Positions 1 to 23,768 of a stretch of DNA of 24,000 bases are shown one piece after another. This DNA is from Thermodesulfobacteriota bacterium. Its GTDB lineage: Bacteria > Desulfobacterota > Desulfobacteria > Desulfobacterales > Desulfosudaceae. The position numbers and the translations under genes were made by a program. Numbering within the stretch: position 1 is the first letter of the stretch; each line of letters opens with the position of its first letter. The stretch spans positions 53,795-77,794 of the forward strand of contig JAXHTY010000022.1 in NCBI GenBank assembly GCA_034189905.1. Reading direction: 5' to 3'. Under the pieces are notes generated by a model. It was not told the DNA's origin. It saw only the letters and a program-made list of their open reading frames with translations, and ran no database searches.

Positions 1-1026
1 CCCCATATACTCATTTACACCGGCGATGAGGTTCCACCCGGAAAACTGTTCGTCTGTCAGGTCCACCATGATAAAAAAGCCGTGGTTCTGATCGACAAAA
101 TCGCCATATCCGTCAAAATTAAACCCGCTATCATCCAGTTCCACCGAATTCTGGTTGGTATTAAAAACAAACTGCCGAAAGCCTGAACCATTTGCGGGAT
201 TCAAATGAAAAGAAGAGATCTGCCAGTACTGATCAAGAAACATGTCCCGCTGCATCTGGAAAATCCGGTCAACATCATCCGCCCCCATGGTTGTCACAAC
301 GTCATCAGGAAGATTTGTCAGCTGTGAGTTCAGCCAGGCCGATGTGACCAGCGGCCGATTGACTTTTCCATATCCGTAAAGCTTGTTGCTGCCGATAATG
401 AGCCGCCGTAATTCCTGATCCCCCTGACCGAAGTTGGAATACTCGGCCCGAAGAACAATGCCGTACAAACGGACTGGATGATCTTCGTCATACCCCATCT
501 GCAGGCCTTCCCAGTTGACATCCCACTGTGTATATTCAGCGCCGTTGCTGGCACCGAAATTTCGATAAAACCCGGACGAAAGATCGGCATGGAGGTTCAC
601 CTTTTTCCCAAAATATCCTGTGCCGTCTTGCGGATTGGTCCGGCTCTGCGTATAAGCAAGGATATTACTCGAATCTGCAGCCAGCATGGGGCCAAGTTCA
701 CCCGCGTCACGTTCGTAATTACCCAGCCGGAGTTCACTGAACTCACCGTAATTTTCTATATAGATATCACTGGAAAAGCGGACAACTGTTACATTTTCAT
801 TCGTGCCATAGTAACCGGGATCACTGATGTCGATGCTGAGAACCTCCCCGCCCTGAACATCCTGAAGCTGCTTGTCCGTCATCACATCCATGCCGGCATA
901 CAGGTTCGTGGCCATAAGTGAACAGAAGGCAATCCCAACCATGGATGTCCACACAATCACATGTGACAACCGTTGTTGAAGCCCTGTTGCCGGGCAACAG
1001 GAAATAACTTTCAAATAATTAATCAT
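1..1026 (-). CDS. Secreted acidic protein, 5' part only (342 codons; the C-terminus lies beyond the left window edge). A Sec signal peptide is followed by a double-glycine-leader-like motif. Third member of the family encoded at 15713 and 16410.
   Basis: Absent from the ORF track because it has no stop inside the window. Plus-strand triplets 1-3, 4-6 ... 1024-1026 contain no TTA/CTA/TCA, so the minus frame is open from ATG (1026-1024) to position 1. There is an in-frame stop upstream at 1047-1045 and a GGAGG at 1035-1031. My translation begins MINYLKVISCCPATGLQQRLSHVIVWTSMVGIAFCSLMATNLYAGMDVMTDKQLQDVQGGEVLSIDISDPGYYGTNENVTVVRFSSDIYIENYG... A hydrophobic signal-like segment precedes MTDKQLQDVQGG (nt 882-847). 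Track ORFs 330-590(-), 478-921(+) and 528-740(+) lie inside it. Confidence 0.75.
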   Translation of the reverse strand, partial: MINYLKVISCCPATGLQQRLSHVIVWTSMVGIAFCSLMATNLYAGMDVMTDKQLQDVQGGEVLSIDISDPGYYGTNENVTVVRFSSDIYIENYGEFSELRLGNYERDAGELGPMLAADSSNILAYTQSRTNPQDGTGYFGKKVNLHADLSSGFYRNFGASNGAEYTQWDVNWEGLQMGYDEDHPVRLYGIVLRAEYSNFGQGDQELRRLIIGSNKLYGYGKVNRPLVTSAWLNSQLTNLPDDVVTTMGADDVDRIFQMQRDMFLDQYWQISSFHLNPANGSGFRQFVFNTNQNSVELDDSGFNFDGYGDFVDQNHGFFIMVDLTDEQFSGWNLIAGVNEYMG

Positions 1027-8180: not shown

Positions 8181-8229
8181 ACCCGATCCGGCACAAACCG
8201 CAAAAGACAGGAAATAAGCAGAACAGACA

Positions 8230-10611: not shown

Positions 10612-10687
10612 CCGACATAATAGGCACAGGCATGACAGACCACTGGGACTCTCACGAACTCAACCTGGAACTTTACGGAAGCCACAG

Positions 10688-12991
10688 ATGAACGTAAGGA
10701 AAAGCCATTCCGCCCAATGGCAGATTTTTGTCATCTCCGGCGTTATTATCTTGCTGGGGACTCTGATCTATGCCAACACTTTTCATGTACCATTTATTTT
10801 CGATGATATCCACAATATTAAAGAGAACAGTCTTATCCGACTGACAACGATCACACCGGGAAAAATTCTTCAACTGAAAAACAGCCCTTGTCCGCATCGG
10901 CTCATAGCAAACTTTTCCTTTGCGTTAAATTACTTTTTTCATGATTATAACGTATTCGGGTATCACCTTATAAATCTGATCATCCACCTGATCACCGGTT
11001 TGCTGGTCTTTTTGACTGCCCGGCAGACCCTGCGCCTTACCGGTACCGATGACCGCTTTATTCCGGCATTGGCCGCCGTCCTCTGGCTGGTCAACCCTGT
11101 TCATACGCAGTCGGTCACATACATTGTTCAGCGGATGACAGCCATGGCCACCATGTTCTATCTGCTGGCCCTGTTCCTTTATATTAAGGCGCGGCTGATG
11201 CAGCACGATTTGCCGAAGAAAAAGGCTGCCCACATACTGCTGTTTGCCGGATGCGCCTTAGCCGGCCTGCTGGGGCTGGGCTCAAAAGAAATAGCCGCCA
11301 CGCTGCCGCTGTTTCTGTTTATTTATGAATGGTTTTTTTTTCAGGACCTGAATGGGCAGTGGGTGAAGCAACGACTTTTATGGATTGGCATTGCATGTCT
11401 GGCATTCTTGGCCATTGCCGCCGTCTACCTGGGAACCAGTCCGGTTGAAAAAATCCTGAAAGGTTATGGTCACAGAGACTTTACGCTAGGCCAACGCCTC
11501 CTCACAGAACCAAGGATCATACTTTACTATCTCTCGCTTCTTGTCTTCCCTCACCCGGACCGCCTGAACCTCAATTACGACATCAGTGTCTCCACATCCC
11601 TCATTGATCCTGCTACGACGCTGCTTTCAATTCTTACCCTATCCGGCCTTTTTGTCGTCACCATGGTTGCGGCCCCCAAAAACCGCTTGCTCGCTTTTGC
11701 AATCCTCTGGTTTTTGGGAAACCTGGTTATCGAATCCTCTTTTCTCAGCCTTGAACTCATTTTTGAACACCGTACCTACCTGCCTTCAATATTCATCATT
11801 ATTGTATTAACCACTGCCCTGCTGACATCCTCCCGCATCCGCAATACCGGCATTACAGCATTGTGCGTGACGATAGTTGTCTTCTGTTACTGGACGTATC
11901 AGCGCAATCAGGTTTGGGCCGATAAGGTTTCTCTGTGGAAAAACTGTTCAGACAAAGCGCCGGGGAGCCCAAGGCCATATATTAATATGGCTTCCGCACT
12001 GATGGAATCCGGGGATATGGCCCGGGCCAAAACGCTTTTTCAGAAAGCACTTCAACTCGACCCATCTAACGATGCAGCCCATAAGGAATATGGCCTGCTG
12101 CTCCTTGAAGAGGGTTTTACCGATCAAGCAATTGATCACTTTCGCAAAAGCATCGTCCTGAACCCACGGAATATTGCTGCTTATAATAATCTGGGATATG
12201 CCTTGCTTCGCAAGAACCAAACCCCAAAAGCGATTTCGGCGCTTGAAAAAGCCCGACATTTGAATCCTTACATCCCTGAAGTTCATTATAATCTTGCGAA
12301 AGCCTATCTGCAGAATGATCACACAACAACAACTTTTGACACAGCAGAAAAAGCTTTCCAGGAGGCCATTTCTCTCGATCCTCTCTATTACAAAGCATTT
12401 AACGATCTGGGCGCCTTATATCTTTTAACCGGACAAACAGACAAAGCTGTTCACGTTTTGAACGAGGCCATTCGCATCAATCCCGAGTATGCCCCGGCCC
12501 ATAAGAACATGGCTTTAACACTGAACCGTCAGGGGAACGCTTCCCAGGCACTCCATCATATACTTGAAGCTTGTCGTATTGCCCCGAACATCCCCGGTTT
12601 CCATATAACTGCCGGGGATATGCTGATGACACAGGGGAAAACGGAAGATGCCCAACATCATTACAGCAAAGCATTGTCTCTGGCCGGTGGGTCTCCCCGG
12701 CAAATTCTGCGTATCGGCAATCATTATGCCGGCGCAGGCCTGTATTCACAGGCAGTTCAAGCGTATCAAAAACTGGCCGCCTTAATGCCGGACAATCCCG
12801 CTGTTTTTTATAATCTTGCATGCCTGTATGCAAAACAAAAAAACCCGGAACAGACAATAGCCTATCTTGAAAAGGCCATCAATAATGGATATGATGATGT
12901 GGATCACCTGAAAACCGACAAGGACCTTGAGATTATCAGAAACACGGAATTCTACAAGAACATTCTACATAAATTGCAGGGTCGAAAATAA
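10688..12991 (+). CDS. Paralog 5 of 6: GT-C (TMTC-like) membrane domain with a TPR domain and cap (767 aa)
   Basis: Track ORF. GGAAG lies 6 nt upstream of the ATG. Motifs: FIFDD, PHRLIANFSFALNYFFH, NPVHTQSVTYIVQRMTAMATMFY, SKEIAATLPL, YEWFFF, FEHRTYLPS. Cap: FYNLACLYAKQKNPEQTIAYLEKAINNGYDDVDHLKTDKDLEIIRNTEFY. Confidence 0.9.
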   Translation: MNVRKSHSAQWQIFVISGVIILLGTLIYANTFHVPFIFDDIHNIKENSLIRLTTITPGKILQLKNSPCPHRLIANFSFALNYFFHDYNVFGYHLINLIIHLITGLLVFLTARQTLRLTGTDDRFIPALAAVLWLVNPVHTQSVTYIVQRMTAMATMFYLLALFLYIKARLMQHDLPKKKAAHILLFAGCALAGLLGLGSKEIAATLPLFLFIYEWFFFQDLNGQWVKQRLLWIGIACLAFLAIAAVYLGTSPVEKILKGYGHRDFTLGQRLLTEPRIILYYLSLLVFPHPDRLNLNYDISVSTSLIDPATTLLSILTLSGLFVVTMVAAPKNRLLAFAILWFLGNLVIESSFLSLELIFEHRTYLPSIFIIIVLTTALLTSSRIRNTGITALCVTIVVFCYWTYQRNQVWADKVSLWKNCSDKAPGSPRPYINMASALMESGDMARAKTLFQKALQLDPSNDAAHKEYGLLLLEEGFTDQAIDHFRKSIVLNPRNIAAYNNLGYALLRKNQTPKAISALEKARHLNPYIPEVHYNLAKAYLQNDHTTTTFDTAEKAFQEAISLDPLYYKAFNDLGALYLLTGQTDKAVHVLNEAIRINPEYAPAHKNMALTLNRQGNASQALHHILEACRIAPNIPGFHITAGDMLMTQGKTEDAQHHYSKALSLAGGSPRQILRIGNHYAGAGLYSQAVQAYQKLAALMPDNPAVFYNLACLYAKQKNPEQTIAYLEKAINNGYDDVDHLKTDKDLEIIRNTEFYKNILHKLQGRK

Positions 12992-12993
12992 AA

Positions 12994-15183
12994 ATGCAAA
13001 CGACAAAAACAGATAGCCACTGGCAAACACTTGCCGTACTTGCAGTAATGATTGCCCTCATCATTCTGATTTACGCCAACGCCCTTGACGCGCCCTTTGT
13101 TTTCGACGACATGCCGAATATAGTCGACAATCCTCATTTACGACTGACCGCCTTCACGCCGGAACGGCTTACCGGGGCAATAAAGGGGCCTTCCGGCAAT
13201 CGGCCCTTTGCATTTTTCTCCTTTGCCTTAAATTACTTCTTTCATGGTTATACTGTAAACGGATATCGCCTTGTAAATCTGATTATTCACCTGATAACCG
13301 GAATGCTGGTCTTTTTGACTGCCCGGCAGACCCTGTACCTCACAGGCACTGACAATCGTTTTATTCCTGTATTTGCTGCCGTTCTCTGGCTGTCAAGCCC
13401 CATTCACACCCAGTCGGTCACATACATTGTTCAGCGGATGACAGCCATGGCCACCATGTTTTACCTGCTGGCCATGTTCCTTTATATAAAAACACGGCTG
13501 GTACAGCGCGATTTTCCGGAAAAAAAGACTATCCCGATACTCTTGTTTACCGGATGTGCAGTGGCTGGGATTCTAGGGCTGGGTTCAAAGGAAATAGCCG
13601 CCACGCTACCGCTGTTTCTGCTGCTGTATGAATGGTTCTTTTTCCAGAATCTGAACGGGCAGTGGATGAAACAACGGCTTTTGTGGATTTGTATTGCATG
13701 CGTAGCCATTGTTGCCATTGCCGCCATTTACCTTGGCACAAGCCCGATTGAGAAAATACTTGGTATGTACGATAAGCAAGATTTTACCATGGGCCAACGC
13801 CTGCTCACCCAGCCGGGAGTCGTGCTCTACTATCTGTCCCTTTTGCTGTTCCCCCATCCCGGCCGCCTGAATCTGGATTACGATTTTCCGGTATCAACAC
13901 TTGTGAACCATCCGCTTACGACAGCCCTGACCATCCTTGCTATTGCCGGCCTCCTGATGGGCGCGATTTCCCTGGCCAAAAAACATCGACTCCTCTCATT
14001 TGCCATTCTGTGGTTTCTGGGCACCCTGGTTGTTGAATCATCGTTTTTGGGACTTGCCCTGGTGTTTGAACACCGCATCTACCTGCCTTCGGTATTTGTG
14101 CTGATTGCATTAACCGCTGCCCTGCTAACACCTTCACACTCCCGCCGCGTCGGTATTGCACTATTGTGCACCGCCACTGTTGTCTCTTGTTTCTGGACAT
14201 ACCAGCGAAACCGGATATGGACCGACAGTATTTCACTCTGGAAAGACTGTATCGCCAAAGCACCCGATAATGGACGACCGTACAACGGCCTGGGCGGGGC
14301 GTTTCAGGAAGCCGGGGACTATGAAAAAGCGCAGTTAAACTTTGAAAAAGCCATTCATCTCAACCCTGACGATTACAGGGTGAACAATAACCTGGGGGCC
14401 CTCCTGCTTGGCACCGGTAAACCAATGGACGCGATACCTTATTTTCAGAAAGCCCTGACAATCAACCCTGAATATCATGAGGCCTATTGCAACCTGGGCG
14501 TCGCGCTGGATCGGATAAACCAGCAAGAGGAAGCAATCCGGTCTTTTGAAAAAGCTTTGGCGATCTATCCCGATTATGCCGAGGCCCACAACAACCTCGG
14601 GTCCACTCTGCTGAATACCGGAAAGCCACAGGCGGCAATATTCCACTTTAAAAAAGCCGTCCGTATCAATCCTTTATATCCCGAAGCTTACAGCAACCTC
14701 GGCCTGGCCCTGATGAACCAGAAAAAGGTCGACCAGGCCATCGGATATTATCAAAAATCCCTGAAACTTTCACCGGAATCAGCCAACACCCATTTTAACC
14801 TCGGCTCGGCGTATTTCATGAAAGGCGACATTCCAAAAGCGATCCATCACCTGGAACAATCGGCTGCCATCAACCCCGCTTCCATTCTTGTGCTGAACAA
14901 CCTGTCCACCCTTTATACCATGGACAAGCAGTACGACAAGGCGATTGCAATACTGGACCAAATTGAAGCGCAACTGCCGGCGAACCCTACGGTCCACTAT
15001 AACAAGGCCTGTGTTTACTCGCTGGCCGGTCGTAAAGAGGCTGCTGTCACAAGCCTGGAAAACGCCATCCGCCTCGGCTATAATAAATGGCACCAGATAA
15101 GGACCGATTCCGACCTGGAAAACATACGGGATACAGCCTATTATAAAAAGCTTGAACAAGCAGTACTTTCTTCTTCGCCATAG
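12994..15183 (+). CDS. Paralog 6 of 6: GT-C (TMTC-like) membrane domain with a TPR domain and cap (729 aa); mosaic relative to the other paralogs
   Basis: Track ORF, starting 2 nt after the stop of paralog 5. Motifs: FVFDD, GNRPFAFFSFALNYFFH, SPIHTQSVTYIVQRMTAMATMFY, FEHRIYLPS. Cap: HYNKACVYSLAGRKEAAVTSLENAIRLGYNKWHQIRTDSDLENIRDTAYY. Confidence 0.9.
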   Translation: MQTTKTDSHWQTLAVLAVMIALIILIYANALDAPFVFDDMPNIVDNPHLRLTAFTPERLTGAIKGPSGNRPFAFFSFALNYFFHGYTVNGYRLVNLIIHLITGMLVFLTARQTLYLTGTDNRFIPVFAAVLWLSSPIHTQSVTYIVQRMTAMATMFYLLAMFLYIKTRLVQRDFPEKKTIPILLFTGCAVAGILGLGSKEIAATLPLFLLLYEWFFFQNLNGQWMKQRLLWICIACVAIVAIAAIYLGTSPIEKILGMYDKQDFTMGQRLLTQPGVVLYYLSLLLFPHPGRLNLDYDFPVSTLVNHPLTTALTILAIAGLLMGAISLAKKHRLLSFAILWFLGTLVVESSFLGLALVFEHRIYLPSVFVLIALTAALLTPSHSRRVGIALLCTATVVSCFWTYQRNRIWTDSISLWKDCIAKAPDNGRPYNGLGGAFQEAGDYEKAQLNFEKAIHLNPDDYRVNNNLGALLLGTGKPMDAIPYFQKALTINPEYHEAYCNLGVALDRINQQEEAIRSFEKALAIYPDYAEAHNNLGSTLLNTGKPQAAIFHFKKAVRINPLYPEAYSNLGLALMNQKKVDQAIGYYQKSLKLSPESANTHFNLGSAYFMKGDIPKAIHHLEQSAAINPASILVLNNLSTLYTMDKQYDKAIAILDQIEAQLPANPTVHYNKACVYSLAGRKEAAVTSLENAIRLGYNKWHQIRTDSDLENIRDTAYYKKLEQAVLSSSP

Positions 15184-15712: not shown

Positions 15713-16237
15713 ATGAAAAAATTATTAGTAGCGTTAGTCGTAGGTGCATTAATGGTTCTGCCGATGTCTGCAATGGCTATGGATTCTATTTCAGATGCTG
15801 ATCTCGGCGGCATCACCGGTCAGGCCGGTGTTACCATCGCCTTTGGCGGCAATCAGACCACAGAAGTGACTTTTGACGCCGTATCCTGGGGCGATCCCGA
15901 TGGCATGGGTGGTGCTAACCAGACTGCCGGTTGGGTCATTTTTGACGGCACAATTGGCATCTCCGTAATCATCGCCGACGGTGAGATGCTGACCATTGAC
16001 GTTGCAACAGCTAATGGTGCTGCATACAGCGTTGGCAATGTTACTATTGCTGACGGCACGACCTTTGTCGCCATTGGCCTGCCCAGCCAGACCATCAATG
16101 TGGACACACCGTCTACGCTGGCCATTGGCCTTGGCACCAGCGCGGGTAGCATTGCCGGCACAATCGGTCTGCTGAACCTGGAAAACCTGAGTGTTTCCCC
16201 GGGTACGCCTGACGCGCTCTACATTTACGCACATTAA
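15713..16237 (+). CDS. Small secreted, extremely acidic Gly/Thr/Ala/Ile-rich protein (174 aa) with a Sec signal peptide followed by a double-glycine-leader-like motif; candidate major structural subunit
   Basis: Track ORF. A strong SD, GGAGGGAG (15699-15706), precedes the ATG. Signal peptide: MKKLLVALVVGALMVLPMSAMA | MDS. Motif ISDADLGGITGQ at nt 15788-15823. After the signal peptide there is no Lys, Arg or Cys, against 12 Asp and 3 Glu. Four N-x-S/T sequons are present (NQT, NQT, NVT, NLS). It shares VSWGDPDGMG and a C-terminal LYIYAH strand with the 16410 product (VYWGDADGFG, IYVYES). Confidence 0.9.
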   Translation: MKKLLVALVVGALMVLPMSAMAMDSISDADLGGITGQAGVTIAFGGNQTTEVTFDAVSWGDPDGMGGANQTAGWVIFDGTIGISVIIADGEMLTIDVATANGAAYSVGNVTIADGTTFVAIGLPSQTINVDTPSTLAIGLGTSAGSIAGTIGLLNLENLSVSPGTPDALYIYAH

Positions 16238-16350: not shown

Positions 16351-16409
16351 TAAATACATACAATAAAATGTGGCTATCAGGAGAGGACAGAAATGGAGAA
16401 CATATCAGC

Positions 16410-17408
16410 ATGAACACCAAGAAATGTTTTTCATCCAGCCTGCCTGCTCTTTTTCTCATTATTGTCGGATTATCAGTTCTATCTTCTGTTGTTCCCACCG
16501 CCCATGCTGTGACACTGCTTTCAGACAAAACCATTGCCCAGATTTACGGCGGTCAGCAGGTTATTATTGAAGTTGAAAACGGGTCAGCCGCTTTTTTTAC
16601 CATTGATGATGTTTACTGGGGTGATGCAGACGGCTTTGGCAATGCCACCAGCCCCGGCTATATCGATATTCAGGTCCCGTATAAAAATTTTCAATATGAC
16701 GCATTTCGATATCAGTTCAACACCAAGGAAGACGCCGATGCCTTCATTGAAGCTCTGGATGACCTGACCTATATGGATATAGAGGTCGAGGATACGGAAT
16801 TTTTCTACAAAGTCCCCAATGCCCAGGATATCGGCATAAACGATACCACTGGCAGAGAGATTGATTATGTAATTGTTACCACAGACAGATCGGTCCCTAG
16901 CAATATTATACAAAACCACAGAGGAACTGTCATCAGCCAGGAAATCCAATTTACCATTTCTTTCCCCGACGAAGAAGACCCATACCGGAAAACGTACGAA
17001 ACCGTCACCTATGACGCGGCCAATGATGAGTTTGTCTTCGATTCAGCAGACTACGGTCAGTTCATCACTGAAGTTCACAATACGGGCAATCAGCCCATTC
17101 GGGACAGTGAAGGCAACATAATTGTGCCGACAGACACAACTTACTTACAAGCTCGCACTGCCACGCTCCAAGTGGATAGCCCCATGATCGCCTTTTCCAT
17201 TGCTCTGATTCCGGAGGGTGATGTGCCCATTCCCGATAGATTCATGCAGAACCCCACCAGCACGCCGAGTCACTACCCTGATTTTGACGCTGCCAATGAC
17301 CCAGGAAGGCAACTGGGATACTTCGGCATTTCTGACCTCCAGGTGCGAATCGGCGGCGGAGAACCCATCTATGTCTACGAATCAGATATTGTCTATCCTT
17401 TTGAATAA
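16410..17408 (+). CDS. Secreted acidic protein (332 aa from the ATG at 16410) with a Sec signal peptide followed by a double-glycine-leader-like motif; larger paralog of the 15713 product
   Basis: The track ORF starts at 16368. I prefer 16410 (MNTKKCFSSSLPALFLIIVGLSVLSSVVPTAHA | VTL) because it gives a canonical n-h-c signal peptide and has GGAGA ~10 nt upstream. Motif LSDKTIAQIYGG at nt 16518-16553. D+E clearly outnumber K+R. The WGDADGFG block and the C-terminal PIYVYES strand are shared with the 174-aa protein. Confidence 0.85.
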   Translation: MNTKKCFSSSLPALFLIIVGLSVLSSVVPTAHAVTLLSDKTIAQIYGGQQVIIEVENGSAAFFTIDDVYWGDADGFGNATSPGYIDIQVPYKNFQYDAFRYQFNTKEDADAFIEALDDLTYMDIEVEDTEFFYKVPNAQDIGINDTTGREIDYVIVTTDRSVPSNIIQNHRGTVISQEIQFTISFPDEEDPYRKTYETVTYDAANDEFVFDSADYGQFITEVHNTGNQPIRDSEGNIIVPTDTTYLQARTATLQVDSPMIAFSIALIPEGDVPIPDRFMQNPTSTPSHYPDFDAANDPGRQLGYFGISDLQVRIGGGEPIYVYESDIVYPFE

Positions 17409-17749: not shown

Positions 17750-17760
17750 ATTTGGTTAAT

Positions 17761-17777
17761 AGTAAACAATGTTTACT
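17761..17777. promoter_or_regulatory. Perfect 8-bp inverted repeat AGTAAACA-a-TGTTTACT; operator-like site just downstream of the candidate -10
   Basis: AGTAAACA at 17761-17768, A at 17769, TGTTTACT at 17770-17777. It lies 12 nt after the -10 hexamer and 41 nt before the ATG at 17818. Confidence 0.35.
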
Positions 17778-17817
17778 GTTTGATATTGGGGGATCTAAAG
17801 GCAGGAGTCTTCATAAA

Positions 17818-18576
17818 ATGCATATATTGGTTGCTTTTGTTATCGCTGTTGCGCTCATCTCCGGATTTAAGCCTATCAAGGAAGTACCGGACAACGAAAT
17901 TCGAATCGCCGTCAATACCGATGGGGGGATTGTCCCCAACCTTCCGCCTGAAGTTGAAATTCGTCATGAAATAGGACCGGCGTCGGAAATCAACTTTAAA
18001 CATATTGTCACGCAGCAATTTGATTATAGCTGCGGCTCCGCAGCCCTGGCCACCATACTGCGATACCAGCTTGGGGAAAAATTCACTGAGACCCAGGTTA
18101 TTGCCGGCCTTTTCCGGTATGGCGACAAGGAACAGGTTGAAAAGAAGCGCGCGTTTTCACTGCTTGACATGAAGAAGTTCGTGGGCGTTCTGGGCTACAA
18201 CGGGGTGGGCTACCGGGCCGATATAGAAGACCTCAAAGATCTGAACATGCCATGCATTGTCCCCATCGAAGTGTTTGGTTACCGACATTTTACCGTTTTC
18301 AAGGACGTTTATAGAGGGCACGTCTTTCTTGCCGACCCGTATCGGGGGAATTCCAGTTATACCATCGATCAGTTCGAAAAAATATGGCACCAGAATGTTA
18401 TTTTTGTCGTGTATCCCAGAGGGGAAGAGCAGCTTTCACTGCTGGAATTATCCCATCGTGACCTTCGATTTATTGACGAGGCCATGGAATACGACATCCT
18501 CTTTAATGGTCAGCCGCCTTTGGACAGCCTGCCGCCGGAACCGGACACAGGCGGAAGACAGCGCTTCAGGTATTAA
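17818..18576 (+). CDS. Stand-alone C39-family (bacteriocin-processing type) cysteine peptidase with an N-terminal signal/anchor helix and no ABC-transporter domain (252 aa from 17818)
   Basis: The track ORF starts at 17752. I prefer the ATG at 17818 (AGGAG at 17803-17807, 10-nt spacer), which gives MHILVAFVIAVALISGF as an N-terminal hydrophobic helix. C39 signature blocks: QQFDYSCGSAALATIL (oxyanion Gln; Cys codon at 18031-18033), FSLLDMKKFVGVLGY, MPCIVPI, GYRHFTVF (His), VFLADPYRGN (Asp), FEKIWHQNVIFV. Confidence 0.85.
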   Translation: MHILVAFVIAVALISGFKPIKEVPDNEIRIAVNTDGGIVPNLPPEVEIRHEIGPASEINFKHIVTQQFDYSCGSAALATILRYQLGEKFTETQVIAGLFRYGDKEQVEKKRAFSLLDMKKFVGVLGYNGVGYRADIEDLKDLNMPCIVPIEVFGYRHFTVFKDVYRGHVFLADPYRGNSSYTIDQFEKIWHQNVIFVVYPRGEEQLSLLELSHRDLRFIDEAMEYDILFNGQPPLDSLPPEPDTGGRQRFRY

Positions 18577-18621: not shown

Positions 18622-20289
18622 TTGAATAGAAAAAATAAAACGATGACCGTATGCATGGCATTAACGCTTCTTCTCTGCCAACTTGCATTCGCAAACCAGC
18701 CCTCTCAAACAGGAGAAAGGCAGTTGATGACGGATATTTCTGTCGATGAACTGGCAACCATCATCGGCAGAGGATTTATTGCCAGCCTGAGCCCCGAGGA
18801 AATTGAAGAGATCAACGCCCGCGGCATCACCGCCCCCGATATTCTGGATATGAAAACTAAAGATCTCGCCCGTATCAGTGCCCGCGGTGTCACATATGTC
18901 TTTGATACATCCAAAGTCACCGATGAGGACCTTCAGGATATCGCCGGTCGCGGAACAGTCCAGGAAATCGGTCGCTCGCCTTACTCTGTACAGGTTGGAG
19001 TCTTTAAGGTAAAGGAGAATGCGCTTTCCCTGCTTAAGGAGCTGGAGGGGAAAGGGTATGAACCTTATATTTTCCAGACCATTGGCGATGCCGATGAAAA
19101 ACTGTTTGCAGTCCGGCTTGGCGACTATGAAGATGTAAAAGACGCCTACGCCGCGGTAACGCACTTCAAATCAAAAGAAAAAAAACCGGCTGTGGTCACC
19201 TATATCAACTCCCTGAAAACCGTTCAAAAAGCAGATCTTATGCAGGAGGAGGCCACCACGAGACTTTCTGATGAATTGTCCGCTGCGGACTTCGAAGATG
19301 AAAACCTGAACTCCCTTTACAGGGAATTAACCGCATTACGCAAAGAGGTGGATCAACTCAAGGCTGAAGCCGAAGCCCGTGAAAAGCTTCGCATGACAGA
19401 AGCCGAGGAGGAAAAAGAAGAGGAAGAAATCCTCTCTGCCGCCGGCAGGGAATACACCATGGCACAAAAAGGGACCCTGACCTTTGATTATTCATTTGGA
19501 TATACGTTTAACACTTATGAACAGGTCAGTGTGGCCTCCACAGCGACATCCGCAACCTCTTACCAGGTTGACCATGTCAACGGCCATACCCTGAGAAACA
19601 GCGTTGCCACGGGATACTCGCTGTTTGACAACCTCAAGGTAACCGCCTCTGTTCCGTTTGTGTACAAATATCAAAAACTGGGCCGTATCGGTTCCAAAGA
19701 TGTCAGTGACATCGGCGACATCTCGCTGGGCGCGAACTGGCAGCCAATCAAAGCCGGCGGAAACTTCCCCGCAACCATCCTTACAACCAATATCAACATA
19801 CCTACCGGGCGAAGTCCTTATGAAATCAATCCCGACGTTGACATTGCTACCGGTTCGGGGGTTTATTCCGCCACTGTGGGTTTTACCGCCAGCAAAACCA
19901 TTGATCCCATCGTGGCGTATGGCGGTATGGGATATACCCACTCCCTTGAAGAATCCGGCCTGAACCAGCAATTGTCTTCCGGCAACGTTCTTGACAGTGT
20001 TGAACCCAAGGGTGTTATCAGTACCAGCCTGGGCGTAGGCTATGCCATGTCCTACAAGGCCTCCATCTATACTAGCTTCTCTTATTCCTACCTGTTTGGC
20101 GCAACCTATAAATATGCGAATGGCAGTGATGCCTCCACCGGAAATTCAGCAACCGCCAGCCTAGTGGTGGGAACGGGCTGGAAAATATCGCCTGAGCGGA
20201 CTGTCAGCATAAACCTGGGCCTGGGGTTGACCAATGAGGCATCCGACTTTGCCTTCTCCTTCAGGCTCCCCTTTGATTTTGAGATGTAA
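18622..20289 (+). CDS. Outer-membrane protein with five parts: signal peptide, four motif repeats, a SPOR peptidoglycan-binding domain, an acidic coiled-coil linker, and a C-terminal beta-barrel of the MetA/phenol-degradation transporter type
   Basis: Track ORF with a TTG start at 18622, preceded by GGGAGG (18609-18614, 7-nt spacer). Signal peptide: MTVCMALTLLLCQLAFA | NQ. SPOR-like block: YSVQVGVFKVKENALSLLKELEGKGYEPYIFQ...LFAVRLGDYEDVKDAYAAV. Linker: LRKEVDQLKAEAEAREKLRMTEAEEEKEEEE. The last ~270 aa show alternating beta-strand patterns with the DIGDISLG, NIPTG and ATGSG motifs I associate with that barrel family, and end FSFRLPFDFEM. Confidence 0.85.
   Translation: MNRKNKTMTVCMALTLLLCQLAFANQPSQTGERQLMTDISVDELATIIGRGFIASLSPEEIEEINARGITAPDILDMKTKDLARISARGVTYVFDTSKVTDEDLQDIAGRGTVQEIGRSPYSVQVGVFKVKENALSLLKELEGKGYEPYIFQTIGDADEKLFAVRLGDYEDVKDAYAAVTHFKSKEKKPAVVTYINSLKTVQKADLMQEEATTRLSDELSAADFEDENLNSLYRELTALRKEVDQLKAEAEAREKLRMTEAEEEKEEEEILSAAGREYTMAQKGTLTFDYSFGYTFNTYEQVSVASTATSATSYQVDHVNGHTLRNSVATGYSLFDNLKVTASVPFVYKYQKLGRIGSKDVSDIGDISLGANWQPIKAGGNFPATILTTNINIPTGRSPYEINPDVDIATGSGVYSATVGFTASKTIDPIVAYGGMGYTHSLEESGLNQQLSSGNVLDSVEPKGVISTSLGVGYAMSYKASIYTSFSYSYLFGATYKYANGSDASTGNSATASLVVGTGWKISPERTVSINLGLGLTNEASDFAFSFRLPFDFEM
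18727..18957 (+). repeat. Four tandem protein-level repeats of an acidic-Leu/Ile-x-x-Ile-x-(Gly/Ala)-Arg-Gly motif in the periplasmic N-terminus of the SPOR barrel protein
   Basis: The four repeats are SVDELATIIGRG, SPEEIEEINARG, KTKDLARISARG and TDEDLQDIAGRG (aa 36-112). The R-G pairs are spaced 17, 21 and 22 residues apart. Compare TDKQLQDVQGG, SDKTIAQIYGG and SDADLGGITGQ in the three secreted proteins. Confidence 0.7.
18979..19206 (+). other. SPOR-like peptidoglycan-binding domain within the 18622 gene
   Basis: aa 120-195 follow the beta-alpha-beta-beta pattern YxVQVGxF...A...L...G....v......FAVRLGxY....A typical of SPOR domains. Confidence 0.6.
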
Positions 20290-20330: not shown

Positions 20331-22070
20331 ATGCGATTGAAAACGCAGACAAGAACAGCACCAATTCTTTTCATAACGGCAGTCGTGTTCCTTCTTTGCA
20401 TTAATGAGAACCGTCTGTGCCATGCCGCCTTTTTTGAAAACATTGCCGTCCATGCCAAGGCCATTTCACTGGCTAATTCATGTGTTGCCTATCCGCCCGG
20501 CCATATGGCAATCCATTACAATCCTGCCGGTCTTTCCAACCTGCATGCCGGTAAACAGCTCAGCCTGGGCCTGCTCACAGCGGATCTTTCCATTGAATCG
20601 AGCTTTAATGCAGATCCGGATTTTGACGGCTGGCTGGACACATTCAGTAATCAGGATGACCCCCTGGACGGCACGAACAGCAGCGTTGAAGGCTGGCATC
20701 TATATATGCCGATACTGGGCGAACAGGATACCGACATCATTGGTGTGGACACGCCCGCCGGGTTTCTTCCGGCTGCGCCGTTCCCGTTAGGATTGTCATA
20801 CCGGGAGCCAGGATCCCGATGGACATTCGGATTTGGTGCCTATGCCCCGACGGTTGGCGGTTATTACCGGTCGGATGCGGATCCCGGCCGCTATAACGGG
20901 CGGGCAGTATCAATGCAACAAATAACATACGCTGCGCCGTCTGTCAGTTACCAGCTCACAGACACACTATCGCTCGGCCTGACCGTCAGCTTAAGCCAGG
21001 GCGCCACTCAGATGGATCTGGATATGCGCATGCCCAACGACCTGATGGCTCTGACCAAAACACTTGGCGATGCAACAGAAGGATTGACCATTCCGATTGT
21101 CTCTCAGTTAACCCTTCCCGCCCCGTGGTTTGGCGGCGGCATCGGGCCGTATGAGGATTTTGCCAACCTGAACATCAAAAGCCGAGACGACTATTGTCCC
21201 GGATATAATATCGGCCTTTTATGGGAACCCAAAAACTGGTTTTCTTTTGGTGCCAATTATCAAAGCAAGGTCCGTATGGAACAGCAGGGTACATATAAAT
21301 TCAGTTATAATGAGAACTGGCAGCGTATGGTAAACTGGTTTGGCAGTTCCGTGCTGTTATTGCCCATTTCAGTCATGCTTGACCTTCCCTATAATGCAAC
21401 CCCCTATCAGGCCGGTAACGTTTATATGGATGGATTTGATGCGCCCCAGCGTGTCCAGATGGGGGTTATGCTCAGGCCCTTCAAGCGACTGCGACTGATG
21501 TGTGATGCCCACTGGATCGACTATTCTGAAACAAAAAAATGGACCATTCAATTCGATCAGAACATCCAGGTACTTCAACTGGCAAAACTGGTAGGACACG
21601 CAGACGGTTCCAACAGACTGACCTTGACCCGGGATATGGAAGATGAAATTCATATGAGTTACGGCGCAGAACTCCAGCTACTGGAGTGGCTCTTTTTGCG
21701 ATGCGGCTATGAAGACAGAAAAACATCTGTCAGCCGGCAATATTTCGATGTTATTGCACCCGTCCCGGATCTGGATTTTTACGGTGCCGGCTTAGGCATA
21801 AAACTTAAGAGCGGGGTTGAAATTGACCTGTCTGTGGGCTATCTTGAATCCGAAAGATGGTATGTACCCAATAACACCAGCGACAATCTGAATTCAACCG
21901 ATTTCACAGACGCGGTATACAATCCGTATGGCGGCCTTGATGTGTCCGGTGAAATGGATATTACAGTCGTTGCGGCCAATGTGAGTATGCCGTTTAAATA
22001 TATTTATCGCATCAGCAATATTCTCAAGGATTCATTGGAAAAAACAAAAGAACTCATTCCTTTCCATTAA
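20331..22070 (+). CDS. FadL/TodX/OmpP1-family outer-membrane channel homolog, enlarged (579 aa)
   Basis: Track ORF. AGGAG lies 5 nt upstream of the ATG. A signal peptide ends in CHA | AFFE. The N-terminal hatch-like block AKAISLANSCVAYPPGHMAIHYNPAGLSNL matches the family hallmark (G.A..A...d.....NPAGL). The remainder is rich in amphipathic beta strands with aromatic girdle residues. Confidence 0.8.
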   Translation: MRLKTQTRTAPILFITAVVFLLCINENRLCHAAFFENIAVHAKAISLANSCVAYPPGHMAIHYNPAGLSNLHAGKQLSLGLLTADLSIESSFNADPDFDGWLDTFSNQDDPLDGTNSSVEGWHLYMPILGEQDTDIIGVDTPAGFLPAAPFPLGLSYREPGSRWTFGFGAYAPTVGGYYRSDADPGRYNGRAVSMQQITYAAPSVSYQLTDTLSLGLTVSLSQGATQMDLDMRMPNDLMALTKTLGDATEGLTIPIVSQLTLPAPWFGGGIGPYEDFANLNIKSRDDYCPGYNIGLLWEPKNWFSFGANYQSKVRMEQQGTYKFSYNENWQRMVNWFGSSVLLLPISVMLDLPYNATPYQAGNVYMDGFDAPQRVQMGVMLRPFKRLRLMCDAHWIDYSETKKWTIQFDQNIQVLQLAKLVGHADGSNRLTLTRDMEDEIHMSYGAELQLLEWLFLRCGYEDRKTSVSRQYFDVIAPVPDLDFYGAGLGIKLKSGVEIDLSVGYLESERWYVPNNTSDNLNSTDFTDAVYNPYGGLDVSGEMDITVVAANVSMPFKYIYRISNILKDSLEKTKELIPFH

Positions 22071-22094: not shown

Positions 22095-23768
22095 ATGCAA
22101 AAAAAACTGCATGCATGCATGTATTTCTGTCTTATTGCCTTCTTTGCCAATATCACCCCAACGGCCTTTGCAACTACCCTTTCAGAAAATTCTGTAAAAT
22201 TGGGAACCGCGTCAAAAAGTGAAAAAATCTACGCTCAGTCCCTCAAAATCAGCGATGACAAGCAGCACATTGCATATGTATCAAAAAATAAAACAGGCAT
22301 GCGGGTCTGGAAAGATGGTACTCCGGGACCAGTTTATCAGGGCATTTCCATTGAAACGCCTGTGTTTGCACCGGGAAGTGATAAGGTCTGTTACATTGCG
22401 ATTGAAGCAAATCAAATGAGAGCGGTTATTGACGGGGAAAAAGGACCTGTTTTTCAGGCAATCGACAGCCTGACCTTTTCTTATGACGGGACAAGGACAG
22501 GATACCGCTACATTAATAATGCAGAAAAAATGCAAGTCATGATTGACAACAAGCCCGGTCCGGAGTTTGCCAAAATTGCGGATGAACCAGGAATTGTATT
22601 CTCACCGGATGGAAAGCATTTTGCCTATGTGGGCATCAGCAGCACCGGGTCTCATATTCTTGTCAAAAACCATAAAAAACAACAAGCATTTGACGATATC
22701 CAGACCGTCTTGTTCTCTCCTGACGCCAGACATCTTGCCATCGTCGCCAAGCAGGCAGATATGTGGCATGTGATTTTCGACGGGAAAACCGGCAATCCGT
22801 ATAAAAAAATTACGCAACTCTCTTTTTCGCCGGATTCAAATCACATCGTCTATACCGCTCAAAAGCAGAAGCAGTTTGTTGTTGTAAAAGACCATAATGA
22901 ACTGCCATCCGGCCAATCCGCCTTGTCTCCGCAATATTCCCCTGACGGTAAAACACTAGTCTATGCTATGGGAAAAAACAATAAATGGCACCTGGTCGTT
23001 AATGGCAAAGCGGGGCCGCCGGTAGAAAAACCGGGAAAAATCGGTTTCTCTGAAAAAGGGAGTCATTTTGCATACTCGGCATTAATGGACGATCAGTGGA
23101 CGGTTTTTTTTGATAACAAAAAAGGGCCGCTTTTCGACAATATCACCTATCTGGATTTCTCACCATATGACCCTACACTTGTCTATATTGCCCACAAGAA
23201 AGACCACCAGTGCATTGTCAAAAACCAGATCCCTGATGTCTTTTATGATTCGGTCGGCTTGCCAGTGTTTTCTGGAAAACCAAACGGCCATTTCGCTTAT
23301 GTTGCACTGGACACGCAGCAGCACAAAACATTCATAATTGAAAATATCGCCGGCAGTACTAAAAAACACGAACCATTTGATATGATCGGTATTCTAATGG
23401 CCGATAAAAAAGGCGATCCCTTTTATGCCGCCCAGCGTCCGTTTTTCTCTGCAGATGGCCGGCATATGGCCTATCCTGTCATCCACAACAAGAAAAGTCT
23501 CATGGTGGTAGATAACAAACCCCAGAAACGGTTTGATGTGGTTTCCAGGCCATATTTTTCTCCTGATGGCACTCATGTCGCGTATATGGCAAAGACCAAT
23601 GACAGATGGTTTGTAGTGGTGGACGGTAAAACAGGCAAAAAAAGCTTTGACAGTTTTCTCAAGGAGGGAGGTATCGTTTTTGATGGACCGGACCGTTTTT
23701 CCGTGCTTGCCTTAAACCTGCCGGGGCCTGATTTCTACCGGCTTACGGTGAACATCAAATCGAATTAA
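22095..23768 (+). CDS. Periplasmic repeat protein (557 aa) built from about a dozen 37-38-aa FSPDGxHxAY-type repeats; likely beta-propeller or beta-solenoid
   Basis: Track ORF. Signal peptide: MQKKLHACMYFCLIAFFANITPTAFA | TT. Repeat anchors: FSPDGKHFAYVG, FSPDARHLAIVA, FSPDSNHIVYTA, YSPDGKTLVYAM, FSEKGSHFAYSA, FSPYDPTLVYIA, FSGKPNGHFAYVA, FSADGRHMAYPV, FSPDGTHVAYMA, plus degenerate copies. Each is followed by W-x-V-(V/I)-x-D-G-K-x-G-P-x-F-D. Confidence 0.85.
   Translation: MQKKLHACMYFCLIAFFANITPTAFATTLSENSVKLGTASKSEKIYAQSLKISDDKQHIAYVSKNKTGMRVWKDGTPGPVYQGISIETPVFAPGSDKVCYIAIEANQMRAVIDGEKGPVFQAIDSLTFSYDGTRTGYRYINNAEKMQVMIDNKPGPEFAKIADEPGIVFSPDGKHFAYVGISSTGSHILVKNHKKQQAFDDIQTVLFSPDARHLAIVAKQADMWHVIFDGKTGNPYKKITQLSFSPDSNHIVYTAQKQKQFVVVKDHNELPSGQSALSPQYSPDGKTLVYAMGKNNKWHLVVNGKAGPPVEKPGKIGFSEKGSHFAYSALMDDQWTVFFDNKKGPLFDNITYLDFSPYDPTLVYIAHKKDHQCIVKNQIPDVFYDSVGLPVFSGKPNGHFAYVALDTQQHKTFIIENIAGSTKKHEPFDMIGILMADKKGDPFYAAQRPFFSADGRHMAYPVIHNKKSLMVVDNKPQKRFDVVSRPYFSPDGTHVAYMAKTNDRWFVVVDGKTGKKSFDSFLKEGGIVFDGPDRFSVLALNLPGPDFYRLTVNIKSN

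What the first reader, a model, noticed from the sequence alone, without database searches (positions are those of the whole stretch)
18727..18957. The outer-membrane SPOR barrel protein carries four tandem copies of the motif found once in each secreted protein
Seen directly: aa 36-112 of the 18622 product contain SVDELATIIGRG, SPEEIEEINARG, KTKDLARISARG and TDEDLQDIAGRG.

The fourth copy is almost superimposable on the left-edge protein motif: TDEDLQDIAG-RG versus TDKQLQDVQG-G. The shared core is acidic, then (L/I)-x-x-(I/V)-x-(G/A), then G/Q/R.

A short linear motif shared by three putative cargo proteins and repeated four times in the periplasmic arm of the barrel suggests a common binding partner. 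That partner could be the C39 cleft, one of the TPR domains, or the repeat protein at 22095.

The outer-membrane copies might act as docking sites, decoys or regulators, or be cleaved themselves. I know of no described system with this arrangement.
Basis: seen in the sequence. Interest (0 to 1): 0.7.

Follow-up and report, generated by a model that had tools for sequence, protein, structure and literature searches.

The report
Leader-like repeats on a secretion channel
An outer-membrane secretion channel of a sulfate-reducer-type bacterium carries four degenerate copies of the short "cut-here" leader found at the front of the proteins it probably exports, which may be how the separate periplasmic processing protease is brought to the channel.

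Summary
Residues 39-111 of the 18622 product form four about 21-residue units (z = 11 against shuffles). All four match a profile built only from cargo N-termini of other genomes (15.0, 12.5, 9.4 and 6.0 bits; 0 of 20,000 shuffles).

The locus is a distant Fil/Fap/Nap-type system. It has DUF6160 (FilA-like) cargo, a standalone periplasmic C39 peptidase (FilB/FapD-like, catalytic triad intact), a SPOR + coiled-coil + FapF-like barrel (FilC-like) and a FadL-like FilD.

Cargo motif and channel units share the register of the double-glycine leader, L(-12)xxxE(-8)L(-7)xxI(-4)xG(-2). Position -1 is Q or G in cargo and R or Q in the units.

The units are kept in 26 of 45 homologues, in two architectures (before or after SPOR), at 4 to 13 copies. 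AlphaFold gives short helices at low confidence, not a confident repeat fold.

Best reading (0.42): the units are recognition sites for the C39 peptidase. They would tether it to the channel, or be trimmed by it.

Main rival: the four-unit block is a small autonomous domain. It also occurs as standalone proteins encoded elsewhere.

No cleavage or binding was tested. I rate it a new variant of a known kind.

The parts
18622..20289 (+). FilC/FapF-like outer-membrane transporter gene: signal peptide, four leader-like units, SPOR domain, coiled coil, beta-barrel
   Evidence: NCBIfam FilC 1.6e-55 and FapF 8.6e-23, both below the curated cut-offs. PDB FapF 5o67, E 1.5e-16 over the barrel. Pfam SPOR 5e-12. 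AF2 model, mean pLDDT 77.6.
18622..18693 (+). Sec signal peptide MNRKNKTMTVCMALTLLLCQLAFA (TTG start)
   Evidence: Read from the sequence. Orthologues start MNRK/MNKP. The public model P0001 starts at internal Met36.
18736..18774 (+). Unit 1, ISVDELATIIGRG (leader register -12 to +1)
   Evidence: Cargo PSSM 9.1 bits ungapped, 12.5 gapped. AF2 helix over VDELATII.
18787..18825 (+). Unit 2, LSPEEIEEINARG
   Evidence: Cargo PSSM 9.4 bits gapped. AF2 helix over PEEIEEINA. L, P, I, I and G invariant in 14 clade-A sequences.
18850..18888 (+). Unit 3, MKTKDLARISARG
   Evidence: Cargo PSSM 6.0 bits gapped. Followed by the conserved GVxxxxDxSK. AF2 gives a weak hairpin here.
18916..18954 (+). Unit 4, VTDEDLQDIAGRG
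   Evidence: Cargo PSSM 16.4 bits ungapped, 15.0 gapped. AF2 helix over DEDLQDIA.
18973..19200 (+). SPOR (peptidoglycan-binding) domain
   Evidence: Pfam PF05036, 46.4 bits against a cut-off of 21. AF2 pLDDT above 90.
19300..19443 (+). Long periplasmic helix (coiled-coil region as in FapF/FilC)
   Evidence: AF2 helix 220-267 in ATG numbering. Invariant R, L and E columns across 42 homologues.
19474..20289 (+). FapF-like beta-barrel
   Evidence: AF2 strands 278-547, pLDDT about 90. Aligns to FapF 5o67/5o68.
17752..18576 (+). Standalone C39 peptidase (FilB/FapD-like). Likely start is ATG 17818 (MHILVAF..., N-terminal hydrophobic anchor)
   Evidence: Pfam Peptidase_C39 7e-18. NCBIfam FilB 1.2e-55 and FapD 2.9e-37. 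Aligns to the PCAT1 peptidase domain with Cys (SCGSAAL), His (YRHFTV) and Asp (LADP) kept. Orthologues start at MHIL.
15713..16237 (+). FilA-like DUF6160 cargo. Leader-like motif ISDADLGGITGQAG at 15788-15829, directly after the signal peptide
   Evidence: Pfam DUF6160, 37.6 bits against a cut-off of 27. G36, Q37, G39 and V40 invariant or nearly so in 35 homologues. AF2: the motif is a flexible extension ahead of the first strand at V40.
16368..17408 (+). Second secreted cargo candidate (no family). Motif LSDKTIAQIYGG at 16518-16553
   Evidence: Orthologues in L001, L003 and L007 carry LLSDxxIxxI(S/T)AG.
1..1026 (-). Third cargo candidate, running off the left edge. Motif MTDKQLQDVQGG at 882-847
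   Evidence: Weak DUF6160 hit over signal peptide plus motif, E 0.2.
20331..22070 (+). FilD-like FadL/OmpP1 family outer-membrane protein
   Evidence: Pfam Toluene_X 1e-43. NCBIfam FilD 2.8e-98, below cut-off. Next to the channel gene in 65 of 68 loci.

Best explanation
The four units are degenerate copies of a double-glycine-type leader. The same leader follows the Sec signal peptide of the locus's DUF6160/FilA-type cargo proteins.

The units sit on a flexible periplasmic arm of a FapF/FilC-type outer-membrane transporter, next to its peptidoglycan-binding SPOR domain. I propose they are recognition sites for the separate periplasmic C39 peptidase (FilB-like). Each unit would offer the two-turn helix (-10 to -4) and the hydrophobic -12/-7/-4 residues that C39 domains bind.

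The array would keep the peptidase at the mouth of the channel, so that leader removal is coupled to export. That would be a non-covalent counterpart of the peptidase-transporter fusion in PCAT exporters. Alternatively, the array is itself trimmed by the peptidase.

Shown here:
- the homology of units and cargo motif
- their register with the double-glycine consensus
- an intact catalytic triad
- conserved synteny
- conservation of the units, with variable copy number

Inferred, not shown: that FilB binds the motif at all, and whether the units are docking sites, decoys or substrates.
For: 1. Units match the cargo profile far above chance. All four score positive, 0 of 20,000 shuffles reach them, and unit 4 scores 16.4 bits.
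2. The cargo profile is specific for repeat-bearing channels.
   - After true cargo, the top hits among 1129 sequences are the repeat-bearing channels.
   - 24 of 26 of them have at least 2 hits of 6 bits or more.
   - No repeat-less homologue does. Among the six-frame ORFs only the channel ORFs and one true cargo do.
3. Register. The units read hydrophobic(-12), S/T(-11), acidic(-8), L/I(-7), I(-4), G/A(-2). The published consensus is L(-12)xxxE(-8)L(-7)xxxxG(-2)G(-1), with -10 to -4 helical in the PCAT1 and LahT complexes (PMC6959990). The AF2 helices fall on -10 to -3 of units 1, 2 and 4. Unconstrained positions -12, -11, -4 and -1 show the same preferences in cargo and units.
4. The only Pfam matches to ortholog repeat regions are weak and sub-threshold, but several are double-glycine leader families: Bacteriocin_IIc, Lactococcin, Sublancin, ComC, Mersacidin.
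5. The C39 peptidase keeps Cys, His and Asp and flanks the channel gene in 67 of 68 loci. The TPR and propeller genes do not always accompany the repeats.
6. In a second clade, the units are near-complete 16-residue copies of cargo positions -12 to +4 (IxxxELxxIDG[QR][AST]GT). There are 8-13 copies, placed after SPOR, and they include a recent 48-nt x 4.9 DNA expansion.
7. In D. oleivorans the units carry the same G-Q at -2/-1 as the cargo.
8. Precedent. The FapD target is unknown and cleavage of the FapF periplasmic linker has been proposed (PMC5557850). NapP/NapF work with GG peptides (PMC11798529).
Against: - No binding or cleavage data exist for any FilB-type peptidase.
- Position -1 is R in all four window units, and Q in most cargo. 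Canonical C39 clefts are described as too narrow for anything but Gly.
- There is no co-variation between units and cargo motif across loci.
- Most FilC-like channels (58 of 68 genomes) work without any repeats, so the array is an accessory.
- FilB N-termini do not differ between loci with and without repeats.
- In the window's clade the four units carry unit-specific conserved residues outside the leader pattern (GFIxxLxP, GVxxxxDxSK).
- The four-unit block also exists as standalone small proteins encoded away from Fil loci. That fits a folded domain with its own function.
Confidence: 0.42

Rival explanations
1. The four-unit block is a small autonomous periplasmic domain built from internal repeats, with a function unrelated to the peptidase (for example binding peptidoglycan, the cargo body or another envelope component). 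Its likeness to the cargo leader would reflect remote common origin, or a shared helix-Gly-turn pattern only.
For: - Unit-specific invariant residues lie outside the leader pattern: F17, I18, L21 and P23 after unit 1, and V55, D60 and K63 after unit 3.
- The order U1-U4 is fixed in 22 clade-A orthologues.
- The block occurs alone in 120-181 aa secreted proteins (P0104-P0109).
- One of these, P0104, is encoded next to a PilZ protein and far from any Fil genes.
- AF2 gives a hairpin over unit 3.
Against: - AF2 confidence over the block is only 38-57, while the neighbouring SPOR domain exceeds 90 with the same alignment.
- The second clade has plain head-to-tail 16-residue copies of the cargo motif, with varying and recently expanded numbers. 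That is typical of linear-motif arrays, not of a domain.
- The distal units of clade A also vary from 0 to 6.
- All four units score on a profile trained only on cargo.
Confidence: 0.27
2. Cargo leader and channel units do share a partner, but it is not the peptidase. The leader would be an export signal read by the channel itself (coiled coil or plug), by the FadL-like FilD, or by a chaperone. The units would occupy that site in cis as an autoinhibitory or queueing element.
For: - FilD and the coiled coil are as universally present as C39.
- Q or R at -1 fits poorly with the canonical double-glycine cleavage site.
- In the FapF model, the periplasmic region regulates gating (PMC5557850).
Against: - The register match to a motif known to bind C39 domains would then be coincidental.
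- Two of the window's three cargo candidates have canonical GG at -2/-1.
- There is no evidence for any other leader receptor.
Confidence: 0.15
3. The units are helix-hairpin-helix-like elements, or merely a flexible acidic spacer between SPOR and the rest of the protein, with no specific ligand.
For: The single-sequence search of 1.84 billion proteins gave one weak hit (5e-4) to a protein made of RpoA-alphaCTD/HhH-like repeats, S.EEL..I.GxG. AF2 confidence over the region is low.
Against: - No Pfam HhH family matches the repeats, even at E = 10.
- The unit spacing of 17-22 residues leaves no room for the second HhH helix.
- Invariant L(-7), I(-4), G/A(-2) and G(+1) across orthologues argue against a mere spacer.
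Confidence: 0.07

Closest known systems
Fap functional-amyloid secretion system of Pseudomonas (FapD C39 peptidase + FapF trimeric barrel; Rouse et al. 2017, PMC5557850)
   Same: - The barrel is homologous to FapF (5o67, E 1.5e-16), preceded by a periplasmic coiled coil.
- The C39 peptidase is standalone and Sec-exported (FapD model 2.9e-37).
- Cargo crosses the inner membrane by Sec.
- The peptidase target is an open question, and the transporter's periplasmic region has been proposed as a substrate.
   Different: - The cargo is DUF6160-type, not FapB/FapC amyloid repeats.
- No FapA or FapE was seen.
- The transporter carries a SPOR domain and leader-like units that FapF lacks.
- Rouse et al. 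state that Fap proteins have no canonical C39 recognition sequence, whereas the cargo here does.
Fil pilus locus filABCD of Acinetobacter (NCBIfam FilA-FilD; Fil fimbriae of strain Tol 5, PMC3498257, PMC11784438)
   Same: Same four gene families in the same order: DUF6160 FilA-like, C39 FilB-like, FilC-like barrel, FadL-like FilD.
   Different: - All four score far below the NCBIfam cut-offs (36 against 220, 189 against 475, 189 against 630, 330 against 970).
- The FilC model aligns from its position 33 to residue 201 here. Acinetobacter FilC therefore has no room for SPOR or repeats.
- Extra genes are present here: six membrane+TPR paralogues and a beta-propeller.
Nap island of Neisseria (NapP C39 peptidase, NapF FapF-like channel, GG-motif peptides; PMC11798529)
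   Same: A periplasmic C39 peptidase and a FapF-like channel are proposed to process and export double-glycine-motif peptides.
   Different: The cargo there is small cationic peptides. No repeats on NapF are reported. I did not inspect the sequences.
Peptidase-containing ABC transporters (PCAT1, ComA, LahT) and their double-glycine leaders (PMC6959990)
   Same: - The peptidase domain is homologous, with the triad conserved.
- The motif register L(-12)...E(-8)L(-7)...(-4)..G(-2) is shared, with a helix over -10 to -4.
   Different: - The peptidase here is not fused to a transporter and acts in the periplasm after Sec export.
- Position -1 is Q or R in most copies.
- The motif is repeated on the transporter rather than present only on the substrate.

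Membership tests
Fil-type system (NCBIfam FilA/FilB/FilC/FilD) | Each protein reaches the curated NCBIfam score for FilA, FilB, FilC and FilD | tested here: not met
   Scores 36.5, 188.9, 189.0 and 329.6 bits against cut-offs 220, 475, 630 and 970. These are significant but distant relatives.
Fil-type system (NCBIfam FilA/FilB/FilC/FilD) | Gene set and order: DUF6160 subunit, C39 peptidase, FapF-like barrel, FadL-like protein | tested here: met
   Window genes at 15713, 17752, 18622 and 20331. Same order in L001-L007. C39 is adjacent in 67 of 68 loci and FadL-like in 65 of 68.
Fil-type system (NCBIfam FilA/FilB/FilC/FilD) | Makes a surface fibre of FilA subunits | not testable with these tools
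   Known only for Acinetobacter sp. Tol 5, from papers.
Fap functional-amyloid system | FapF-type barrel with a periplasmic coiled coil | tested here: met
   PDB FapF 5o67, E 1.5e-16. AF2 helix 220-267 plus barrel. The NCBIfam FapF score of 80.8 is below the cut-off of 700.
Fap functional-amyloid system | FapB/FapC amyloid subunits with N/Q-rich imperfect repeats | tested here: not met
   The cargo candidates are DUF6160 or have no family. No Fap subunit family was hit.
Double-glycine leader recognised by a C39 peptidase | Consensus L(-12)xxxE(-8)L(-7)xxxxG(-2)G(-1), with a hydrophobic residue at -4 | tested here: inconclusive
   All four units have hydrophobic -12, acidic -8, L/I at -7, I at -4 and G/A at -2, but R at -1. 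Cargo has GG (two proteins) or GQ (FilA-like). Pfam leader families hit the ortholog repeats only below threshold, and the window's own repeat region matched no Pfam family even at E = 10.
Double-glycine leader recognised by a C39 peptidase | Helical conformation of -10 to -4 | tested here: met
   AF2 helices 34-41, 51-59 and 94-101 cover these positions in units 1, 2 and 4, at low confidence. In cargo FilA only a short helix (28-31) is predicted.
Double-glycine leader recognised by a C39 peptidase | Binding to, and cleavage by, the cognate peptidase | not testable with these tools
   Complex prediction of chimeric or paired chains was not available. No experimental data exist.
C39 cysteine peptidase | Domain match and Cys/His/Asp catalytic residues | tested here: met
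   Pfam PF03412, 65.1 bits against a cut-off of 22. The alignment to PCAT1 keeps C (SCGSAAL), H (YRHFTV) and D (LADP).
SPOR domain protein | Pfam SPOR above the gathering score | tested here: met
   46.4 bits against a cut-off of 21. AF2 pLDDT above 90 with a beta-alpha-beta-beta-alpha-beta pattern.
Helix-hairpin-helix repeats | Match to an HhH family model | tested here: not met
   No HHH family among Pfam hits at E up to 10 on four repeat regions. Only one weak phmmer hit, to an alphaCTD-like repeat protein.

The most novel reading that the evidence does not exclude
A FapF/FilC-type outer-membrane channel carries an array of pseudo-leaders that recruits, or is processed by, the free periplasmic C39 peptidase. 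This would be a non-covalent, periplasmic equivalent of the peptidase-transporter fusion of PCAT exporters. It would also give the first concrete recognition motif, L/I/M-S/T-x-x-E/D-L-x-x-I/V-x-G-Q/G/R, for the whole class of periplasmic C39 peptidases (FapD, FilB, NapP), whose substrates are unknown. The standalone four-unit proteins would then be soluble regulators of the same peptidase.
Probability: 0.33. Interest if true: 0.75.

Novelty: new variant of a known kind. Interest (0 to 1): 0.6.

Why it matters
Periplasmic C39 peptidases are essential for Fap amyloid secretion, and they accompany the Fil pili and the Neisseria Nap peptides. What they recognise has remained open since 2017 (PMC5557850).

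This locus family offers a clear candidate. The cargo carries a Sec signal peptide followed by a 15-residue leader in canonical double-glycine register. The same leader is copied 4 to 13 times on the periplasmic arm of the channel.

That turns [quoted passage not shown] into a simple peptide-binding and N-terminomics experiment. A cultured host with a complete genome is available: Desulfosudis oleivorans Hxd3.

If the units turn out to be a folded domain instead, they define a new small periplasmic module, found both fused to channels and free-standing.

Tried and rejected
- **HMMER with a 19-column cargo-motif HMM.** It ranks the channels right after true cargo, but per-domain scores are crushed by local-alignment and null2 costs. 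I replaced it with an ungapped and one-gap PSSM.
- **Pfam on the window's own repeat region.** No hit at all. Only ortholog repeat regions gave weak leader-family hits.
- **Tandem Repeats Finder on the window.** Nothing found.
- **Co-variation of units and cargo motif across loci.** None seen. The cargo is invariant while the units drift.
- **Comparison of FilB N-termini in loci with and without repeats.** No difference: all start with the same hydrophobic segment.
- **Foldseek of the FilA model against the PDB.** No match better than E = 0.1. The idea that FilA is a donor-strand pilin therefore could not be tested.
- **Pfam on the membrane domain of the TPR paralogues.** No family found. My recollection that they resemble PMT/TMTC glycosyltransferases is unconfirmed.
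- **TPR proteins or the beta-propeller as the shared partner.** Rejected, because they are absent from the repeat-bearing loci L004 and L002.
- **Single-sequence search of 1.84 billion proteins with the repeat region.** Only 8 hits, so breadth outside this clade is unknown.
- **Literature searches.** Searches for DUF6160, FapF + SPOR and Fil gave no description of the repeats.
Full report
**What is in the window**

The window comes from a Thermodesulfobacteriota metagenome-assembled genome. Public protein P0001 is 100% identical to the product of the gene in question.

On the + strand there are:
- Six tandem paralogues with a polytopic membrane domain plus TPR repeats (1463-15183).
- A 174-aa DUF6160 protein (15713-16237; Pfam 37.6 bits, cut-off 27).
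- A 346-aa secreted protein with no family (16368-17408).
- A standalone C39 peptidase (17752-18576).
- The gene of interest (18622-20289).
- A FadL/OmpP1-family protein (20331-22070).
- A PD40-type beta-propeller (22095-23768).

A further secreted protein is encoded on the minus strand and runs off the left edge.

NCBIfam places the 15713, 17752, 18622 and 20331 products nearest to FilA, FilB, FilC and FilD. These belong to the putative Fil pilus system. The peptidase and the barrel also lie nearest to FapD and FapF of the Pseudomonas amyloid system. All scores are far below the curated cut-offs.

The barrel aligns to the FapF crystal structures (5o67, E 1.5e-16). The peptidase aligns to the PCAT1 peptidase domain with the catalytic Cys, His and Asp conserved.

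So the "outer-membrane SPOR barrel protein" is a distant FilC/FapF-type transporter. The locus is a distant member of the class [quoted passage not shown]. That class also includes the Neisseria Nap island (PMC11798529).

The protein starts at the TTG at 18622. Evidence: a GGAGG upstream, a basic n-region (MNRKNK), and orthologues that start the same way. The public model starts at an internal Met and loses the signal peptide.

After the signal peptide come four units of about 21 residues:
- ISVDELATIIGRG
- LSPEEIEEINARG
- MKTKDLARISARG
- VTDEDLQDIAGRG

A blind search for the best four non-overlapping 14-mers finds exactly these. The sum-of-pairs score is 151, against 17 +/- 12 in shuffles (z = 11).

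Each of the three cargo candidates has one copy directly after its signal peptide.

**The likeness to the cargo motif is not an impression**

I fetched seven related loci by exact-protein look-up. From them I collected 23 cargo N-terminal motifs, none from the window, and built a 14-column PSSM.

I scanned 1129 sequences: 45 channel homologues plus all six-frame ORFs of 60 aa or more from the loci and the window.
- True cargo scores 17-40 bits.
- The next-best sequences are almost all repeat-bearing channels.
- 24 of 26 of those have two or more hits of at least 6 bits.
- No repeat-less homologue does. Among the six-frame ORFs only the channel ORFs themselves and one true cargo do.

In the window, unit 4 scores 16.4 and unit 1 scores 9.1 bits ungapped. 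The cargo reads G-Q-A-G where the units read G-R-G. Allowing that one-residue gap, all four units score 15.0, 12.5, 9.4 and 6.0 bits. The 99.9th percentile of decoy windows is 2.7 bits, and no shuffle out of 20,000 reaches them.

**The motif is a double-glycine-type leader in canonical register**

The published consensus for leaders bound by C39 domains is L(-12)xxxE(-8)L(-7)xxxxG(-2)G(-1).
- Positions -10 to -4 form a two-turn helix in a hydrophobic groove.
- L(-7) and L(-12) form a hydrophobic knot.
- Position -4 sets specificity (PMC6959990).

The FilA-like cargo reads I(-12)S D A D(-8)L(-7)G G I(-4)T G(-2)Q(-1). The other two cargo candidates end in canonical G(-2)G(-1).

All four channel units have a hydrophobic residue at -12, an acidic one at -8, L/I at -7, I at -4 and G/A at -2. 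Position -1 is R.

Frequency tables over 141 cargo motifs, 179 clade-A units and 54 clade-B units show the same preferences at positions the extraction pattern did not constrain (-12, -11, -4, -1).

Pfam gives no significant family for the repeats. However, the weak hits on ortholog repeat regions include five different double-glycine leader families.

In a 35-sequence alignment of FilA homologues, including Pseudomonas DUF6160 proteins, G36, Q37, G39 and V40 are invariant or nearly so. The AlphaFold model puts the motif on a flexible extension ahead of the first beta-strand, which starts at V40. That fits a removable propeptide. The model is only moderately confident (pLDDT 70).

**Conservation and variation of the units**

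Of 45 homologues, 26 carry the units, and all 26 also have SPOR. Six have SPOR alone. The rest have neither.

There are two architectures.
- **Clade A (window, Desulfosudis oleivorans Hxd3 and relatives).**
  - Four units sit directly upstream of SPOR in a fixed order.
  - They are preceded by 0-6 further 12-13-residue units (L[ST]xxELxxx[ST]GAG).
  - In some members SH3 domains come first.
- **Clade B.**
  - SPOR comes first, followed by 8-13 head-to-tail 16-residue units.
  - The units read IxxxELxxIDG[QR][AST]GT, which is essentially cargo positions -12 to +4.
  - One genome shows a recent 48-nt x 4.9 DNA expansion.

In a scan of one genome per species, 68 FilC-like loci were found, all in Desulfobacterota. 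That limit comes from the search pattern used. Ten of the 68 have repeat-bearing channels.
- C39 is adjacent in 67 of the 68 loci.
- The FadL-like gene is adjacent in 65 of the 68.
- Cargo-motif ORFs lie within 7 kb in 39 of the 68.

**Structure**

AlphaFold2 with a 42-sequence alignment models SPOR, the long helix and the barrel at pLDDT of about 90. The unit region reaches only 38-57.
- Short helices fall on VDELATII, PEEIEEINA and DEDLQDIA, that is, on -10 to -3 of units 1, 2 and 4.
- A weak hairpin falls over unit 3.

This does not show an autonomous helical-repeat fold. The alignment is shallow, though, so it does not exclude one.

**Mechanism**

The best-supported reading is that the units are recognition elements for the FilB-type peptidase.

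The peptidase is free-standing. It has a conserved N-terminal hydrophobic segment that may keep it at the inner membrane. The channel arm is flexible and pinned to peptidoglycan by SPOR. An array of low-specificity pseudo-leaders there would concentrate the peptidase at the channel. Cargo, whose motif is far more conserved, would then be processed where it is exported.

The alternative outcomes, decoy or trimming of the arm, cannot be separated by sequence.
- The D. oleivorans units have the same G-Q as cargo, which speaks for cleavability.
- The window's G-R and A-R speak for non-cleavable docking.

For FapF, processing of the periplasmic linker by FapD has been suggested from peptide coverage (PMC5557850).

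**Evidence against, and the main rival**
- There is no co-variation between units and cargo.
- Most FilC-like channels lack units altogether.
- Clade-A units carry conserved residues beyond the leader pattern (GFIxxLxP, GVxxxxDxSK).

A search of 1.84 billion representative proteins with the window's repeat region found only eight proteins. Six of them are 120-181-aa secreted proteins that consist of the four-unit block alone, with a distinct C-terminus (EGWERFL). One was traced to a site next to a PilZ protein, away from any Fil genes. It lies in the same genome as a repeat-bearing channel.

This shows the block is an independent evolutionary module. It supports the rival that it is a small domain with its own function. 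It is equally compatible with soluble regulators of the peptidase.

A weak hit to an alphaCTD/HhH-like repeat protein is not backed by any Pfam HhH match.

**Novelty**

The underlying system is a known kind (Fap, Fil, Nap). I found no paper describing SPOR-bearing FapF-like channels, DUF6160 leaders, or leader-like repeats on the channel. The library does not cover subscription-only papers, among them the original Fil fimbriae paper, which reports an Edman sequence of FilA. I rate this a new variant of a known kind.

Noticed in passing
P0104-P0109; loci L076 7414-7860 and L077 168-614: Six of the eight hits from the 1.84-billion-protein search are a family of 120-181 aa secreted proteins. They consist only of the four-unit block (U1-U3 plus a variant U4 ending EGWERFL). 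P0104 is encoded next to a PilZ-domain protein and an alpha/beta hydrolase, far from any Fil genes. It lies in the same MAG (CAYTQK01) as the repeat-bearing channel locus L011.
   Followed up: partly
window 1463-15183 (+): Six tandem paralogues (618-866 aa) share a conserved polytopic membrane domain (YANTFxxPFxFDD near the N-terminus) followed by TPR repeats. The membrane domain hits no Pfam family. Similar genes flank Fil-like loci L001, L003, L005 and L007 but not L004 or L006. A resemblance to PMT/TMTC-type glycosyltransferases is from memory only.
   Followed up: partly
window 18622-18726: The public annotation of this protein (P0001, 520 aa) starts at internal Met36 and lacks the signal peptide. 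The TTG at 18622, with a GGAGG upstream, matches the MNRK/MNKP starts of the orthologues.
   Followed up: yes
window 17752-17870; FilB orthologues in L008-L075: FilB-type peptidases begin directly with a hydrophobic segment (MHILVAFLIxVALIxGF) without a basic n-region. The likely start in the window is ATG 17818. This may be an uncleaved membrane anchor rather than a normal signal peptide.
   Followed up: partly
P0004 (728 aa); P0005, P0006, P0008 and P0009 (675-690 aa): Some orthologues elaborate the arm further. P0004 has two consecutive [units]-SPOR modules. The D. oleivorans-type proteins add SH3 domains upstream of the units.
   Followed up: no
window 16368-17408; L001 8160-8942; L003 7847-8956; L007 7857-8984: A second cargo family with no Pfam match has the leader LLSDxxIxxI(S/T)(A/G)G. 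It has canonical AG/GG at -2/-1 instead of the GQ of FilA-like proteins. It also shares a WGDxDG motif downstream with the DUF6160 proteins.
   Followed up: no
L004 2425-8982: In one clade-B locus a 2185-aa protein lies directly upstream of the C39 gene, where the other loci have small cargo genes. No leader motif was seen at its annotated N-terminus.
   Followed up: no
window 22095-23768 (+): The beta-propeller protein downstream of FilD scores 6e-34 on the NCBIfam TmcD family (below cut-off) and on PD40/TolB repeats. It is syntenic in L001, L003, L005 and L007 but absent from the clade-B loci.
   Followed up: no
P0110 (482 aa): A protein made of six or so RpoA-alphaCTD/HhH-like repeats (DLxLSVRxxNALxxAGIxxVxxLxxxSxxELxxxxGVG) was the weakest hit of the repeat-region search. 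The likeness to the units looks superficial.
   Followed up: partly
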